A stretch of 5,541 nucleotides of DNA from a virus, in IMG/VR virus record IMGVR_UViG_3300045988_008363, positions 1 to 5,541 of that record; one strand, given 5' to 3'. Under the pieces are notes generated by a model. The model saw nothing but the letters and a program-made list of their open reading frames with translations, ran no database searches and had not been told where the DNA came from. Both the position numbers and the translations under genes were made by a program. This document shows positions 1 to 5,541 of this stretch, piece after piece (the stretch's first letter is position 1; each line of letters begins with the position of its first letter).

Positions 1-119
1 CCCAAAGCAGTAGTAGTATTAGTACCACTCTGTTGAACAACTTGATTAACACTAATAGGAGTGTGATTATAAGCTAACAATTCTGGACGTTGTTGTCTAG
101 CATCAGGCGAAGTAACACC
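1..119. repeat. Terminal direct repeat, copy 1 (identical to 5423..5541): the redundancy left by writing a circular genome as a linear string.
   Basis: Positions 1..119 match 5423..5541 base for base by direct comparison. The implied unit length is 5422 bp, and the VP1 reading frame is continuous through the junction. Confidence 0.9.
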
Positions 120-2004: not shown

Positions 2005-2163
2005 CTAATTTTCCTCCACAATATCAATTTGTTTAGCTTTTCTACGTCTAAAATTAATAAAATTCTTAGCAAGTGTCACAATCGCAAAAATCACAATAGC
2101 AAGAATAAACACCGCTACAATGAAAATAAGAAATTGTATCATCATTACATAGAAATCACTCAT
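2005..2163 (-). CDS. 52-aa predicted single-pass membrane protein: hydrophobic helix followed by a basic C-terminus. Below the ORF-track size threshold.
   Basis: Hand translation: MSDFYVMMIQFLIFIVAVFILAIVIFAIVTLAKNFINFRRRKAKQIDIVEEN*. GGAGG with a 9-nt spacer precedes the ATG at 2163. The ATG overlaps the stop of the upstream 40-aa basic ORF (ATGA), and its own stop abuts the next ATG. The hydrophobic core uses Ala/Val/Ile codons rather than only AT-rich Phe/Ile/Asn/Lys codons, which argues against a random AT-rich ORF. Confidence 0.5.
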   Translation of the reverse strand: MSDFYVMMIQFLIFIVAVFILAIVIFAIVTLAKNFINFRRRKAKQIDIVEEN

Positions 2164-3499: not shown

Positions 3500-3553
3500 A
3501 ACATCACCTCATTTACATAATATCTATTACGCGAACAAAAGCATACAATTATA

Positions 3554-3576
3554 AGAGAGCTAATTATAAGCTCTCT
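3554..3576. other. Hairpin H4: 8-bp stem (agagagct / agctctct) with a 7-nt loop that overlaps the stop codon of the 56-aa ORF, between it and the 67-aa ORF.
   Basis: Pairing verified. No clean U-tract follows on the minus strand, so it is probably not a full terminator. It could be an RNA stability element or an attenuator. Confidence 0.45.
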
Positions 3577-3730
3577 CTAACTCTAGCATAACTTCAAAAG
3601 AAATCTCTTCATCTAATTCAGCGTATGCGCTAAAATCTCTACGATTATTAACATCACCACAGTCGGTATCTTGTCCTAAATCATAACAAACTTCTCGCCA
3701 TTCTTTGTATAAAACTTCTAAATCTTTCAT
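3560..3730 (-). CDS. 56-aa strongly acidic hypothetical protein. Likely start is ATG at 3730; the track's 79-aa version starts at a GTG inside a hairpin.
   Basis: A near-perfect RBS AGAGGAGG with a 7-nt spacer precedes ATG at 3730. Protein: MKDLEVLYKEWREVCYDLGQDTDCGDVNNRRDFSAYAELDEEISFEVMLELERAYN*. Net charge is about -10. It is the first ORF downstream of the intergenic region and a putative extended -10 promoter. Confidence 0.55.
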   Translation of the reverse strand: MKDLEVLYKEWREVCYDLGQDTDCGDVNNRRDFSAYAELDEEISFEVMLELERAYN

Positions 3731-3755
3731 AATAAATCCTCCTCTGTATATACAT

Positions 3756-3790
3756 ATTATAACACAAAATACATAAAAAATAAGGTATTT
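3756..3790 (-). promoter_or_regulatory. Putative sigma70-type promoter with an extended -10 (TGTTATAAT on the minus strand) upstream of the 56-aa ORF, the 67-aa ORF and VP4.
   Basis: The minus-strand sequence tattttgTGtTATAATatgtatatacagaggagg places a perfect TATAAT (plus-strand positions 3756..3761), with TGn immediately upstream, about 25 nt before the 56-aa ORF's ATG. The -35 is weak (CTTATT-like). This is inference only. Confidence 0.3.
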
Positions 3791-3796
3791 GTGTGT

Positions 3797-3838
3797 CACC
3801 TAGCCCCATTAATAACAAGAAGATTAATGGGGCTGGTG
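3797..3838. other. Hairpin H1: 16-bp stem with one bulged T and a 9-nt loop. Arms are cacc(t)agccccattaat and attaatggggctggtg.
   Basis: Base pairing verified position by position. A palindromic ATTAAT lies at the base of each arm. The loop and arm contain ATTAATAACA (3808..3817), which is identical to 10 nt of the phiX174 origin core CAACTTGATATTAATAACAC. Confidence 0.55.
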
Positions 3839-3874
3839 GGGTAACTCTCGCAATACTCGAGTTAAATGCATAAA

Positions 3875-3909
3875 AAAACCGCACTTGTTTTCACGACGTT
3901 AGCGGTTTT
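3875..3909 (-). terminator. Hairpin H2: candidate intrinsic terminator for the minus-strand transcript about 250 nt downstream of VP2. Stem aaaaccgc/gcggtttt, loop 19 nt, followed on the minus strand by a 7-T run.
   Basis: 8-bp stem verified. On the minus strand the stem is followed by TTTTTTTATGC. On the plus strand it is followed by TTTTCTT, so it could act in both directions. The loop is long, so as a terminator it is only moderate. Confidence 0.4.
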
Positions 3910-3920
3910 CTTAGCATGTT

Positions 3921-4125
3921 TTAAATATTATATTTGTTACATCATTTAACTAATAAAATAAATTTAAAAAATATATTTGTTTAAATAAAAACCAATTAAT
4001 TAAAAATAAAATAAATTGAATAAATAAATAAAAATAAATTTTTTTATCTAAATTATTCTTAGCTATAAATGGAGATAATATCTTATACTCCAAATACATA
4101 AAAACTAAATAAGCAATTAAAGTCA
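3921..4125. other. Extremely AT-rich, low-complexity A-tract/T-tract block with reiterated (a)aataaa(t) units. Noncoding.
   Basis: Direct reading shows recurring ataaaataaatt (near 3954 and 4007) and aataaataaataaaaataaattttttt (4019..4045). The only ORF here (track 3950..4144) encodes a Phe/Leu/Ile/Tyr/Asn/Lys low-complexity peptide and is judged spurious. Confidence 0.6.
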
Positions 4126-4127
4126 TA

Positions 4128-4156
4128 TATAATACTCCCTTCACGGGAGTATTATA
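4128..4156. other. Hairpin H3: perfect 12-bp stem (tataatactccc / gggagtattata) with a 5-nt loop, starting 6 nt after the VP2 stop codon.
   Basis: Pairing verified position by position. It is followed on the minus strand by a U-rich but not uniform tract (TATGACTTTAATTGCTTATTTAGTTTTTATG). Confidence 0.55.
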
Positions 4157-4162
4157 ACAAAA

Positions 4163-4867
4163 CTAAATTAAACCGGCAATAATAAGCGGTGCAATAGAAC
4201 CAATAATTCCAGAAATAGAATTAAATTTAGTTCCTTTATAATGCATGTCTGCACCATAACGACTAGCACTAGCAGAACTATTTGCACCATATATTTTAGC
4301 CATATAATCCAACTGAGCGTTAGCTTTAGAAACATCGGCAGAATATTTTTGAGCATGATGAGAACTATCTGCGCCATAACGAGAGGCATCAGCTTGCATC
4401 TTATAACCTTGTAACATTGCACGTGCTTGAACTTCTGCATTACGCATACTAGCGTTAGCGGCAATATTAGCAGCTTGAACTTGTGCAGCACTACTAATAG
4501 CGGCACCGGCAACGGCAGCCATACCTGAAACGGCAGAAGTATCAACATCACCTTTAGAACCTTGAGGAGAAGAACCTTGACTAGCACTAGCACCACTTGG
4601 AGTAGAGGCACTTGTACCACCGCTTGTAGCGGCTAGAATTGGATTAAGACCCGCTTTCTGCAAATCTGCAACAGAACGCTGAGCGGAAGTATTAGACATT
4701 TCTTGTTGAAAATCACGGTTTTTCTGAGCCTCTTGAGCATTGAAGTCCCGAAGTTTTTGAGCCTCGGAACTTTGGAAATTCATTTGTGTTTGAGCCTGTT
4801 GAGCAGACAGAGCATTATTCTTATCAGCCATAGACTGCATTTGATTAACTAAACCTGAAATATTCAT
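4163..4867 (-). CDS. VP2: Minor capsid / DNA pilot protein VP2 (234 aa).
   Basis: Track ORF. The N-terminal Gln/Ala-rich coiled region contains [20 protein letters not shown], matching the conserved DLxxAGLNP block of gokushovirus VP2 (established knowledge). A long Ala/Ser/Gly-rich central region follows. RBS GTAGGTG with a 5-nt spacer precedes ATG at 4867 and overlaps the VP1 stop. Confidence 0.85.
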
Positions 4868-4875
4868 ATTAACAC

Positions 4876-5541
4876 CTACATTCTTGTTAAACCGGGTACA
4901 GAGTACATCGGCATTGGACGAGTAGCCTCAATCTTTAAATAGATATCCATAAAAATCTGAGCGGATAAATTATCAGAAACGGCAAGAACACGATTTACAG
5001 TAGTAGAATTCTCTTGAATCCAATCACTAGAAAGTTTAGGAAGAGACTCATAATCGTCCGCGAGGTGCCAAACGTCTAAAGATTGTGGATAATCGCTACG
5101 CATTTCGGCGGAAACTCTATCGGGAACATATCTATACTCTGCCCAAGCTTCTTGATAGCCGAAAACTTCATCATTAACGTCATTCGGTTGTTTAGAGTAA
5201 TCTTGATAAATTTCTTTATTTAAAATAGGTTGCTCACCGATATTTGCAAAAACAGGCCAATAATAATCGAAACGAGTTTGACGAGACCACATACGATTAA
5301 TACCTTGTTGATAAGAATGTTTATAACGTACACATGCTAAACCAATAATATATCCATGTTCTGTAAAAGATTTAACAAAAGAACTATCACTATCGGCAGT
5401 AACACTCAATCCGGCAACATCACCCAAAGCAGTAGTAGTATTAGTACCACTCTGTTGAACAACTTGATTAACACTAATAGGAGTGTGATTATAAGCTAAC
5501 AATTCTGGACGTTGTTGTCTAGCATCAGGCGAAGTAACACC
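4876..5541 (-). CDS. VP1: Major capsid protein VP1, 3' (C-terminal) portion. Stop codon TAG at 4876..4878. Positions 5423..5541 duplicate 1..119.
   Basis: Track ORF 4876..5502 reads ...[23 protein letters not shown]...YSVPGLTRM*. The M reported by the track is really TTG (Leu) inside the continuous VP1 frame. It has the same frame and identical sequence to the continuation from 1..1163 through the terminal repeat. Confidence 0.9.
5423..5541. repeat. Terminal direct repeat, copy 2 (identical to 1..119).
   Basis: Same as for copy 1. Confidence 0.9.

What the first reader, a model, noticed from the sequence alone, without database searches (positions are those of the whole stretch)
3731..4162. 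Structured intergenic region of about 430 bp: three verified hairpins plus an A-tract block, a candidate origin/packaging/termination hub
This is the only sizeable noncoding stretch in an otherwise gene-saturated genome. It contains three hairpins and an A-tract block. H3 has a perfect 12-bp stem starting 6 nt after the VP2 stop. Next comes about 200 bp of reiterated aaataaa units that is nearly free of G and C. H2 has an 8-bp stem followed by a T-run and looks like a terminator. H1 has a 16-bp stem, one bulge, and palindromic ATTAAT at both arm bases. H1 also carries ATTAATAACA, a 10-nt identity to the core of the phiX174 replication origin (CAACTTGATATTAATAACAC), although it reads in that orientation on the strand opposite the genes. 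In gokushoviruses the Rep nick site and the complementary-strand origin are poorly defined, which makes this region a strong candidate for them.
Basis: partly seen in the sequence, partly recalled or inferred. Interest (0 to 1): 0.55.

Follow-up and report, generated by a model that had tools for sequence, protein, structure and literature searches.

The report
Conserved gokushovirus replication-origin hairpin
One of the three hairpins (H1) is this phage's copy of a stem-loop conserved across gokushoviruses that carries the phiX174-type nick motif in its loop, so it is most likely the long-undefined replication origin; the rest of the "noncoding hub" is a small gene, a terminator and promoters.

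Summary
The window is a circular 5,422-nt gokushovirus-type microvirus with all genes on the minus strand. The three hairpins are real.

H1 (3797-3838) is far more than chance. A covariance model finds the same element in about 63 of 80 gokushovirus contigs, in about 35 GenBank microviruses, and in Chp2, phiMH2K, SpV4 and an E. coli gokushovirus prophage. It is almost always in noncoding DNA.

- The stem covaries: 14 of 17 pairs show double changes.
- The loop keeps YCTNCTTGATR (CTTCTTGTT in the window).
- A 3' box STGACACC sits at a fixed 12-13 nt.

The loop profile's best hit in the whole phiX174 genome is the mapped nick site, CAACTTG^ATA. H1's orientation tracks the T-rich strand at synonymous sites. 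I conclude that H1 is the viral-strand origin, with the Rep nick predicted between G3816 and T3815 on the minus strand.

The "A-tract block" is probably a 58-codon gene for a protein with two hydrophobic segments. H2 is a terminator-like hairpin. H3 carries a -10 box and the small gene's ribosome-binding site. An extended -10 promoter follows H1. A dif-like integration site lies outside the region (3510-3537).

No experiment supports any of these assignments.

The parts
3797..3838 (-). H1 stem-loop. 5' arm 3838-3823 (CACC-AGCCCCATTAAT), loop 3822-3814 (CTTCTTGTT), 3' arm 3813-3797 (ATTAATGGGGCT-A-GGTG). This is the window's copy of the stem-loop conserved across gokushoviruses and is the proposed viral-strand origin.
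   Evidence: structure. The model R1 scores 69.1 bits on the minus strand against 21.6 bits on the plus strand. Conservation and covariation.
3814..3822 (-). Loop motif CTTCTTGTT (family consensus YCTNCTTGATR). The Rep nick is predicted between G3816 and T3815, by analogy with phiX174 CAACTTG^ATA.
   Evidence: CTTG is invariant in the alignments. The loop profile's top hit in the phiX174 genome is the annotated origin at 4298-4308. The nick position itself is inferred, not shown.
3793..3799 (-). Conserved 3' box GTGACAC (family consensus STGACACC), overlapping the base of the 3' arm. Proposed Rep recognition element.
   Evidence: Invariant in alignment A1. Its distance from CTTGATR is 12 nt (41 elements), 13 nt (19) or 11 nt (1) in 61 elements. 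Binding is inferred.
3871..3913 (-). H2: terminator-like hairpin (A-run, stem AAAACCGC/GCGGTTTT, 19-nt loop, then T7) lying 37 nt after the stop of the small ORF. Proposed end of the late VP1-VP2-small ORF transcription unit.
   Evidence: z only -2.3. Nearly identical in L102, L104 and L105. Not flagged by the terminator scan, which accepts loops of at most 8 nt.
3950..4126 (-). Probable gene for a 58-aa protein with two hydrophobic segments (MTLIAYLVFMYLEYKILSPFIAKNNLDKKIYFYLFIQFILFLINWFLFKQIYFLNLFY).
   Evidence: An open frame this long arises in 4% of block-shuffles. A positional counterpart in L105 has unrelated DNA but a similar protein (BLASTP E 6e-5, 32% identity, same hydropathy profile). 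The only substitution in L102 is synonymous. Gene callers call it on other contigs. No family match.
4128..4156 (-). H3 hairpin: TATAATACTCCC-GTGAA-GGGAGTATTATA. The 5' arm holds a -10 hexamer and the 3' arm holds the Shine-Dalgarno GGGAG of the small ORF.
   Evidence: A second allele with compensatory changes (TATAATCACC-GTGA-GGTGATTATA) occupies the same place in L001 and L105.
4151..4179 (-). Promoter-like site TTGCCG-17-TGtTATAAT. Its predicted start falls in the H3 loop, giving a transcript with the small ORF's ribosome-binding site unpaired.
   Evidence: 10 of 12 matches plus TG. L105 has TTTACT-17-TATAAT at the equivalent place (read by eye). Function is inferred.
3756..3764 (-). Extended -10 promoter TGtTATAAT, about 30 nt downstream of H1. 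It is followed by SD GAGGAGG (3745-3739) and the ATG at 3730 of the first early small ORF.
   Evidence: Read directly from the sequence. L003 has TGaTATAAT at the equivalent place before Rep. Not listed by the scan, which requires a -35 hexamer.

Best explanation
The interval is a compact mosaic, not one noncoding hub. Read on the gene (minus) strand it runs:
- VP2 stop
- H3, a hairpin whose 5' arm is a -10 box and whose 3' arm is a ribosome-binding site
- a 58-codon gene for a protein with two hydrophobic segments (the 'A-tract block')
- H2, an intrinsic-terminator-like hairpin
- H1
- an extended -10 promoter for the early genes

H1 therefore sits in the short gap between the predicted terminator H2 and the predicted early promoter. 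It is the viral-strand origin of rolling-circle replication.

Proposed mechanism:
1. In the supercoiled replicative form, the inverted repeat is extruded or melted.
2. The phage Rep (VP4) recognises the stem base and the 3' box GTGACAC. Rep has the HUH motif and the Y-x-A-R-Y-x-x-K-K double tyrosine, as in phiX174 protein A.
3. Rep cleaves the loop after CTTG, between G3816 and T3815, and becomes linked to the 5' end.
4. The host polymerase extends the 3' OH.
5. After one round, Rep cuts and rejoins the regenerated site, releasing a circular single strand for packaging.

Shown: the structure, its subfamily-wide conservation and covariation, the invariant loop and 3' box with fixed spacing, the match to the phiX174 nick core, and the link between H1 orientation and the T-rich strand.

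Inferred: Rep binding, the nick position, cruciform extrusion, and the promoter and terminator roles.
For: 1. Spread. blastn with H1 alone hits unannotated DNA in about 35 GenBank microviruses whose VP1 proteins are only 46-62% identical. Model R1 finds the element in 51 of 80 IMG/VR gokushovirus loci at E<=0.01, and in about 63 of 80 at E<1 including the filter-off search. It is also in Chp2 (29 bits), phiMH2K (15.6 bits) and an E. coli gokushovirus prophage (38.9 bits), and by eye in SpV4 at 508-552.
2. Structure under selection. 88% of cells are paired against 28-36% when partners are slid; 14 of 17 pairs show double changes; 0 of 500 shuffles reach the observed values. A 97%-VP2 relative (L104) has swapped the stem (TCCACCCTATTAA / TTAATAGGGTGGA) but kept the loop.
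3. Sequence. CTTG(A/T)T in the loop and STGACACC 12-13 nt further on are near-invariant.
4. Link to phiX174. The 11-nt loop profile ranks the annotated phiX174 origin (4298-4308, CCAACTTGATA; rep_origin at 4306) first of about 10,800 positions. It ranks the alpha3 origin second.
5. Rep. The catalytic motifs are shared with protein A: HUH region E 0.004, and AYTARYVMKK against FYVAKYVNKK.
6. Strand logic. In 17 genomes the element lies on the strand opposite the genes. All 9 of these tested have T-poor, A-rich four-fold sites in VP1 (T4 0.05-0.18). Same-orientation genomes, the window (T4 0.68) and phiX174 (0.64) are T-rich. The 'opp' genomes form three separate groups in an unbootstrapped VP1 neighbour-joining tree.
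7. Host breadth. The same loop and box occur in phages of Chlamydia, Bdellovibrio, Spiroplasma, E. coli and Firmicutes. This fits recognition by a phage protein rather than a host factor (inference).
8. Position. The element is nearly always noncoding. It moves between intergenic regions (before Rep, before VP1, after Rep) and coincides with a recombination breakpoint.
Against: - There is no experimental evidence.
- The window's loop is the minority CTTGTT variant, shared with L003, L004 (CTCGTT), phiMH2K and SpV4, so the base after the predicted nick differs from phiX174.
- The 3' box does not match the phiX174 recognition sequence, and the two-block profile does not single out the phiX origin (5.3 bits, within shuffles).
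- The loop profile's lead in phiX174 is narrow (11.6 against 10.2 bits). Within the window, H1's loop is only the third-best hit.
- About 17 of 80 loci gave no hit, some of them full length.
- Three same-orientation lineages (L048, L086/L090, phiMH2K) are A-rich at four-fold sites, so composition is not set by orientation alone.
- Alignments A3 and A4 were fitted to the model, which inflates the pairing counts somewhat. Many loci come from a single metagenome.
- A hairpin on the packaged strand could equally prime complementary-strand synthesis.
Confidence: 0.65

Rival explanations
1. H1 is the complementary-strand origin. On the packaged single strand the hairpin is recognised by a host primosome, primase or RNA polymerase, which starts synthesis of the second strand. 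Known examples are the phiX174 F-G hairpin, the G4 origin and the M13 minus-strand origin.
For: H1 is a stable hairpin on the gene-sense strand. PMC9865509, section 3.8, interprets conserved intergenic hairpins in other microviruses this way. An element confined to the packaged strand would also track strand composition.
Against: The loop and 3' box are conserved in sequence across phages of very different hosts: Chlamydia, E. coli, Spiroplasma and Firmicutes. Host priming signals are host-specific, so this conservation is unexpected for them. The loop matches the nick core of the phiX174 viral-strand origin. Inverting only a priming signal would not change which strand is packaged, whereas inverting the nick site would.
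Confidence: 0.13
2. H1 acts in double-stranded DNA or in RNA as a regulatory element between the late and early transcription units: an operator for a phage DNA-binding protein, or a terminator or processing hairpin.
For: It lies between a terminator-like hairpin and a promoter. Palindromes are typical operators.
Against: There is no T-run. The loop and the one-sided 3' box are conserved, which makes the element asymmetric. Its position relative to genes varies (before Rep, before VP1, after Rep) and its orientation can flip. Its orientation correlates with synonymous-site composition, which a transcriptional element would not cause.
Confidence: 0.07
3. H1 is a dif-like XerC/XerD site used for prophage integration, as in enterobacterial gokushoviruses.
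For: Some alleles can be read as 11-6-11 with a XerD-like arm (L022: TGATGTTAACT against TTATGTTAAAT, 9 of 11). This was read by eye.
Against: In the E. coli prophage the element lies between VP3 and VP1, and the dif sites lie at the prophage ends. The window has a separate dif-like site at 3510-3537, exactly where two prophage contigs join host DNA. dif motifs are rare in gokushoviruses and dispensable for infection (PMC7062461).
Confidence: 0.02
4. The AT-rich block is noncoding after all: a DNA-unwinding or curved element that helps open the nearby origin. On this view the open frame is a by-product of T-rich sequence.
For: An open frame of this length arises in 4-7% of block-shuffles. There is no family match. 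Only near-identical homologues were found. Translating T-rich DNA gives F/L/I/Y-rich 'hydrophobic' peptides automatically.
Against: L105 has a different DNA sequence at the same place, which again encodes a protein of about 53 aa with a hydrophobic-polar-hydrophobic profile and detectable similarity (E 6e-5). It again starts just after an H3-type hairpin that supplies an SD.
Confidence: 0.3

Closest known systems
phiX174 / Bullavirinae viral-strand origin (30-bp site in gene A, cleaved by protein A at CAACTTG^ATA)
   Same: Same virus family. Rep has the same HUH and Y-x-A-K/R-Y-x-x-K-K motifs. The nick core is shared: family consensus CTACTTGATG/A and window CTTCTTGTTA, against CAACTTGATA. The following ATTAAT is also shared in the window. 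The loop profile's best hit in phiX174 is the origin. The element lies on the T-rich strand, as in phiX174.
   Different: The phiX174 origin lies inside the rep gene and is not a hairpin. H1 is intergenic and presents the core in the loop of a covarying 9-17-bp stem. The 3' box STGACACC is not the phiX recognition sequence TAGACCAC.
Stem-loop origins of other HUH-Rep replicons (nonanucleotide stem-loop of circo-, gemini- and nanoviruses; pMV158-type plasmid double-strand origins)
   Same: Architecture: a conserved nick motif in a hairpin loop, a stem that varies by compensatory change, an adjacent conserved protein-recognition sequence, an intergenic location next to divergent modules, and a recombination breakpoint at the origin. 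The comparison with those systems rests on established knowledge.
   Different: The loop motif is YCTNCTTGATR, not NANTATTAC. The Rep is the microvirus two-tyrosine type. No iterated repeats were seen, only a single 3' box.
Conserved intergenic hairpins reported in very small microviruses (reekeekee- and roodoodooviruses; PMC9865509, section 3.8)
   Same: Intergenic hairpins next to Rep, conserved in sequence and with compensatory stem changes.
   Different: Those are in other clades, and the authors left their function open, favouring negative-strand priming. No loop motif or link to the phiX174 nick site was reported there.

Membership tests
phiX174-type viral-strand origin | Nick core CAACTTG^ATA on the viral strand | tested here: met
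   Family consensus CCTACTTGATG. The window has CTTCTTGTTA, 7 of 10 identical to CAACTTGATA, on the gene strand. The loop profile ranks the phiX174 origin first in its genome. The window carries the CTTGTT variant.
phiX174-type viral-strand origin | Downstream recognition sequence of the 30-bp origin (CACTATAGACCAC) | tested here: not met
   The 3' box is GTGACAC(C). Block 2 scores -6.4 bits at the phiX origin, and the combined score is within shuffles.
phiX174-type viral-strand origin | Located inside the rep gene | tested here: not met
   H1 is intergenic in the window and nearly always noncoding in relatives.
phiX174-type viral-strand origin | Cleaved by the phage Rep, with covalent 5' attachment | not testable with these tools
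   Only the conserved catalytic motifs of Rep could be shown.
Hairpin-loop origins of HUH-Rep replicons | Stem-loop maintained by compensatory change, with a conserved loop motif | tested here: met
   14 of 17 pairs show double changes, 88% of cells are paired, and 0 of 500 shuffles reach the observed values. CTTG is invariant in the loop.
Hairpin-loop origins of HUH-Rep replicons | Adjacent conserved Rep-recognition sequence at fixed distance | tested here: inconclusive
   The conserved box lies at 12-13 nt in 60 of 61 elements. Binding was not tested.
Hairpin-loop origins of HUH-Rep replicons | CRESS-type nonanucleotide NANTATTAC in the loop | tested here: not met
   The loop is CTTCTTGTT in the window and YCTNCTTGATR in the family.
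XerC/XerD dif-like site (tested for H1) | 11-6-11 site at the prophage-host junction | tested here: not met
   H1 is internal to the E. coli prophage, whose dif sites lie at its ends. The window's junction site is at 3510-3537.
Intrinsic (rho-independent) terminator (tested for H2) | G+C-containing stem directly followed by a T-run on the transcribed strand | tested here: inconclusive
   The stem AAAACCGC/GCGGTTTT is followed by T7 on the gene strand. However, the loop is 19 nt, z is -2.3, and the site is not listed by the scan.
Complementary-strand origins (phiX174 primosome site, G4, M13) | Hairpin on the packaged strand recognised by a host priming factor | not testable with these tools
   The hairpin is present. 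Conservation across unrelated hosts argues against a host-specific signal, but that is inference.
Any described RNA family (Rfam 15) | Match to a curated covariance model | tested here: not met
   No match at E<=1 over the whole window, on either strand.

The most novel reading that the evidence does not exclude
H1 defines which strand is displaced and packaged. About one gokushovirus genome in five in this sample (17 genomes, in three groups of an unbootstrapped VP1 tree) carries it inverted relative to all genes. Those phages would package the antisense strand, making them negative-sense microviruses, which to my knowledge have not been described. Their synonymous sites mirror those of ordinary microviruses: T4 is 0.05-0.18, against 0.45-0.74 in same-orientation genomes.
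Probability: 0.35. Interest if true: 0.85.

Novelty: new variant of a known kind. Interest (0 to 1): 0.65.

Why it matters
- I found no paper in the searchable library that defines the replication origin of gokushoviruses, the most abundant microviruses in gut and environmental viromes.
- This analysis gives a concrete, testable site: a covariance-model-detectable stem-loop, a predicted nick position and a predicted recognition box. The same element is present in the genetically tractable E. coli gokushovirus, in Chp2 and in SpV4.
- It links the hairpin-less phiX174 origin to the stem-loop origins of other HUH-Rep replicons.
- It provides a landmark for orienting and annotating metagenomic microvirus genomes.
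- It explains a module-exchange breakpoint.
- It raises the possibility that some microviruses package the antisense strand.

Tried and rejected
- Rfam scan of the window at E<=1: nothing.
- H1 as a dif site: rejected using the E. coli prophage and the window's own dif-like site.
- Full homology to the 30-bp phiX174 origin: only the nick core matches. The two-block profile fails.
- L001, a 92% relative that seemed to lack H1: its contig ends exactly at H3, and L105 carries the same H3 allele followed by the small ORF, H2 and H1. L001 is therefore probably incomplete and is not evidence of loss.
- L006 and L008, from the pattern scan: chance matches inside coding DNA of 12-kb contigs.
- L106: diverges straight after VP2 and is uninformative.
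- Exact H1 pattern in IMG/VR: no hit.
- Whole-genome TA skew as a marker of the packaged strand: suggestive but with exceptions. Four-fold sites were used instead.
- Homologue search for the 58-aa ORF: only near-identical copies. No PHROG match.
- Literature, ten searches: no paper on a gokushovirus origin or hairpin. Older subscription papers on Chp1, Chp2, SpV4 and phiMH2K could not be searched.
- Search for the uninfected host dif site in the nearest genomes: not found.
Full report
**What the window is**

The window is one circular genome of 5,422 nt carried with a 119-nt terminal redundancy. All genes lie on the minus strand. In reading order they are:

- VP1, the major capsid protein (1163, wrapping round to 4876; Phage_F, E 1.7e-160)
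- VP2, the pilot protein (4867-4163)
- the interval in question (4162-3731)
- two small ORFs (3730-3560 and 3499-3296)
- Rep/VP4 (3309-2296)
- an ORF8-like basic peptide
- a 52-aa hydrophobic peptide
- VP5
- the VP3 scaffold protein

This is a gokushovirus-type microvirus. It has no close relative in GenBank phages.

**Check of the observation**

The three hairpins exist at the stated places.

| Hairpin | Stem | Loop | Fold as ssDNA | z-score |
|---|---|---|---|---|
| H1 | 12 bp perfect, plus 4 bp across one bulge | 9 nt | -15 kcal/mol | -6.8 |
| H3 | 12 bp perfect | 5 nt | -10.1 kcal/mol | -7.8 |
| H2 | 12-nt arms, 92% complementary | 19 nt | -10.7 kcal/mol | -2.3 |

H3 starts 6 nt after the VP2 stop. 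H2 is followed by T7 on the gene strand. The whole interval folds with z -8.8.

The 10-mer ATTAATAACA is present once, on the plus strand. However, 21 of 200 shuffles give at least one such match.

The region is not simply noncoding, as explained below.

**H1 is a conserved element**

blastn with the interval hit only H1. The hits were in unannotated DNA of microviruses from rodent, lemur, pig, yak and capybara faeces and from Ciona gut. The VP1 proteins of these viruses are only 46-62% identical to each other.

I built a covariance model from ten copies and searched 80 IMG/VR gokushovirus contigs fetched with a VP1 alignment. It found the element in 51 of them at E<=0.01, and in about 63 at E<1 once the filter-off search is included.

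The element is also present in the cultured gokushoviruses:

- Chp2, in the intergenic region between VP3 and ORF8 (29 bits)
- phiMH2K (15.6 bits)
- an E. coli gokushovirus prophage, between VP3 and VP1 (38.9 bits)
- SpV4, found by eye at 508-552: TGGGGCATAT-ATTACTTGTTATA-ATATGCCCCA-TTGACGAC

The consensus has three parts:

- A stem of 9-17 bp whose sequence varies freely but stays paired. 88% of cells are paired, against 28-36% when partners are slid. 14 of 17 pairs show changes on both sides. 0 of 500 shuffles reach the observed values. This alignment was fitted to the model, which favours pairing somewhat.
- A loop reading YCTNCTTGATR. The window has CTTCTTGTT, a minority CTTGTT allele shared with L003, phiMH2K and SpV4 (L004 has CTCGTT).
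- A box STGACACC at the 3' base of the stem. It lies 12 nt (41 cases), 13 nt (19) or 11 nt (1) after CTTGATR.

In the window the canonical orientation is on the gene strand: 69.1 bits against 21.6 bits.

**Why H1 is read as an origin**

- *Match to the phiX174 nick site.* An 11-nt profile of the loop, built without the window, was scanned over both strands of phiX174. Its best hit is 4298-4308, CCAACTTGATA, which is the annotated 'origin of viral strand synthesis' at 4306. In alpha3 the origin ranks second. The lead is small (11.6 against 10.2 bits) and the motif is short, so this is supportive rather than decisive.
- *Shared Rep chemistry.* The window's Rep shares the catalytic motifs of phiX174 protein A: RPHYHAIIF against RLHFHAVHF, and AYTARYVMKK against FYVAKYVNKK, with Y343 and Y347 in protein A.
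- *Host breadth.* The element is conserved in phages of Chlamydia, Bdellovibrio, Spiroplasma, E. coli and Firmicutes. This suits recognition by the conserved phage Rep better than by host priming factors (inference).
- *Mobile position.* It sits in whichever intergenic region is largest: before Rep, before VP1, or after Rep. It is nearly always noncoding.
- *Recombination breakpoint.* L104 is 94-100% identical to the window from VP1 through H3, the AT-rich block and H2. It then changes exactly at H1. The stem is swapped with compensation, the loop is kept, and the downstream module is different.
- *Strand composition.* In 17 genomes the element lies on the strand opposite the genes. Four-fold degenerate sites of VP1 behave as follows:

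| Group | T4 | A4 |
|---|---|---|
| Same-orientation genomes | 0.45-0.74 | 0.02-0.26 |
| Window | 0.68 | 0.18 |
| phiX174 gene F | 0.64 | 0.05 |
| All nine opposite-orientation genomes tested | 0.05-0.18 | 0.26-0.80 |

Rep genes give the same picture. In a VP1 neighbour-joining tree the opposite-orientation genomes form three separate groups (no bootstrap was run). Two of them have same-orientation, T-rich sister genomes: L074 for L051/L052 and L067 for L047. The strand carrying CTTGAT is therefore usually the T-rich one, as it is for the packaged strand of phiX174. Exceptions exist: L048, L086/L090 and phiMH2K have the same orientation but are A-rich.

**What did not fit**

The 3' box is not the phiX174 recognition sequence, and a two-block profile does not pick out the phiX origin. 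H1 is therefore not a member of the phiX 30-bp origin family in the strict sense. It shares the nick core and the enzyme, but has the stem-loop-plus-box architecture typical of other HUH-Rep origins.

**The rival dif reading**

Some alleles can be forced into an 11-6-11 frame. Three observations exclude this reading:

- The E. coli prophage carries the element internally, with the dif sites at its ends.
- Kirchberger and Ochman found dif motifs to be rare in gokushoviruses and dispensable for infection (PMC7062461).
- The window has its own dif-like site elsewhere, described below.

**The rest of the interval**

*The AT-rich block.* It is 12% GC. It is an open frame on the gene strand, ATG 4126 to TAG 3950, 58 aa, with a hydrophobic-polar-hydrophobic profile. 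GGGAG lies 8 nt upstream of the ATG. By shuffling it is only marginally unusual (4%).

A relative, L105, has quite different DNA at the same place. That DNA again encodes a protein of about 53 aa with the same profile and detectable similarity (E 6e-5, 32% identity). It again starts just after an H3-type hairpin. I rate this block as coding at about 0.65-0.7.

*H3.* It has two alleles with compensatory differences: TATAATACTCCC/GGGAGTATTATA and TATAATCACC/GGTGATTATA. In both, the 5' arm is a -10 hexamer and the 3' arm holds the Shine-Dalgarno sequence. The window has TTGCCG-17-TGtTATAAT.

A plausible reading follows, though it is untested. Read-through RNA from VP2 would hide the ribosome-binding site inside the hairpin. 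RNA started in the loop would expose it.

*H2.* It is terminator-like and lies 37 nt after the small ORF.

*After H1.* An extended -10 (TGtTATAAT, 3764-3756), an SD (GAGGAGG) and the ATG at 3730 follow H1. H1 therefore lies in the gap between the predicted terminator H2 and the predicted early promoter.

**Relatives and lifestyle**

Two independent metagenome contigs, one of them 68.8 kb, carry this phage as a prophage. Homology to the window ends at 3511. That point is immediately after TGTTCGCGTAATAGATATTATGTAAAT (window 3537-3510), which resembles dif: its XerD-type arm is TTATGTAAAT.

The flanking host genes are a phosphopentomutase and a XerD-like recombinase. The phosphopentomutase is closest to Thomasclavelia (85%) and Massilimicrobiota (75-76%), both Coprobacillaceae.

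**Literature**

Ten full-text searches found no description of a gokushovirus origin or of this element. The nearest is the report of conserved intergenic hairpins of unknown role in very small microviruses (PMC9865509). Older subscription papers on Chp1, Chp2, SpV4 and phiMH2K could not be searched, so an earlier mention for a single genome cannot be excluded.

**Verdict**

H2 as a terminator is plausible. The A-tract is probably a gene. H3 is not a plain terminator.
- Confidence that H1 is the viral-strand origin with a loop nick: about 0.65.
- Novelty: a new variant of a known kind, namely a phiX-type nick core presented in a covarying hairpin loop with its own 3' box, conserved across a subfamily.

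Noticed in passing
window 3510-3537 (minus strand), between the two small early ORFs; L102 4330-4357; L105 4351-4378: There is a dif-like site, TGTTCGCGTAATAGATATTATGTAAAT. Two independent metagenome contigs (OHMN01000170.1, 68.8 kb, and OXOI01000194.1) carry this phage as a prophage whose junction with host DNA falls exactly here, next to deoB and a XerD-like recombinase gene. The host is probably a Coprobacillaceae bacterium (deoB 85% to Thomasclavelia). This phage is therefore probably temperate and integrates through XerC/XerD.
   Followed up: partly
L011, L013, L040-L047, L051, L052, L054, L056, L059, L069, L070 (element coordinates): In 17 gokushovirus genomes the H1-type element lies on the strand opposite all genes. 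In the 9 tested, four-fold sites of VP1 and Rep are mirrored: T4 is 0.05-0.18 and A4 is 0.26-0.80, against T4 0.45-0.74 elsewhere. These genomes form three separate groups in an unbootstrapped VP1 tree. They may package the antisense strand.
   Followed up: partly
L048, L086, L090, L098 (phiMH2K): These genomes have the element on the gene strand but are A-rich at four-fold sites (TA4 skew -0.26 to -0.61). Orientation alone therefore does not set synonymous-site composition. This is unexplained.
   Followed up: no
window 3950-4126 (minus strand); L105 about 3749-3910: The 'A-tract block' is an open frame of 58 codons for a protein with two hydrophobic segments. A diverged positional counterpart exists in L105. 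Its function is unknown; a lysis or exclusion protein is possible.
   Followed up: partly
window about 3797-3838 against L104 about 2440-2513; window about 3961 against L105 3897: There are module-exchange breakpoints. L104 matches the window up to H2 and diverges from H1 onwards. L105 shares H2, H1 and the first early ORF, but has a different VP2 C-terminus, H3 allele and small ORF.
   Followed up: partly
window 3554-3576: A fourth hairpin (AGAGAGCT-AATTATA-AGCTCTCT, -6.7 kcal/mol, z -2.7) overlaps the stop of the 56-aa early ORF, just upstream of the dif-like site. It is conserved in L102 and L105.
   Followed up: no
window 2005-2163 (minus strand): A 52-aa ORF with one strongly hydrophobic segment and a basic tail (MSDFYVMMIQFLIFIVAVFILAIVIFAIVTLAKNFINFRRRKAKQIDIVEEN) lies between the ORF8-like peptide and VP5. 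It is conserved in L002 and has no family match. It is a second small membrane-protein candidate.
   Followed up: no
window 1-119 and 5423-5541: A 119-nt terminal direct repeat shows that the window is a circular genome of 5,422 nt read past its start.
   Followed up: yes
L001 ends (5200 | 1): The IMG/VR contig of a 92% relative ends exactly at the H3 hairpin and lacks the small ORF, H2 and H1. It is probably an assembly break at the structured, AT-rich region and not a genuine deletion.
   Followed up: partly
L007 3956-4016; L009 173-238: In two more distant microvirus contigs the 3' box pairs with a downstream copy (TAGGTGAC-ACC-GTCACCTA) to form a second hairpin, instead of extending the first stem. 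In L003 inverted copies of TAAGTGACA flank the element. The box may therefore act as a repeated recognition unit.
   Followed up: no
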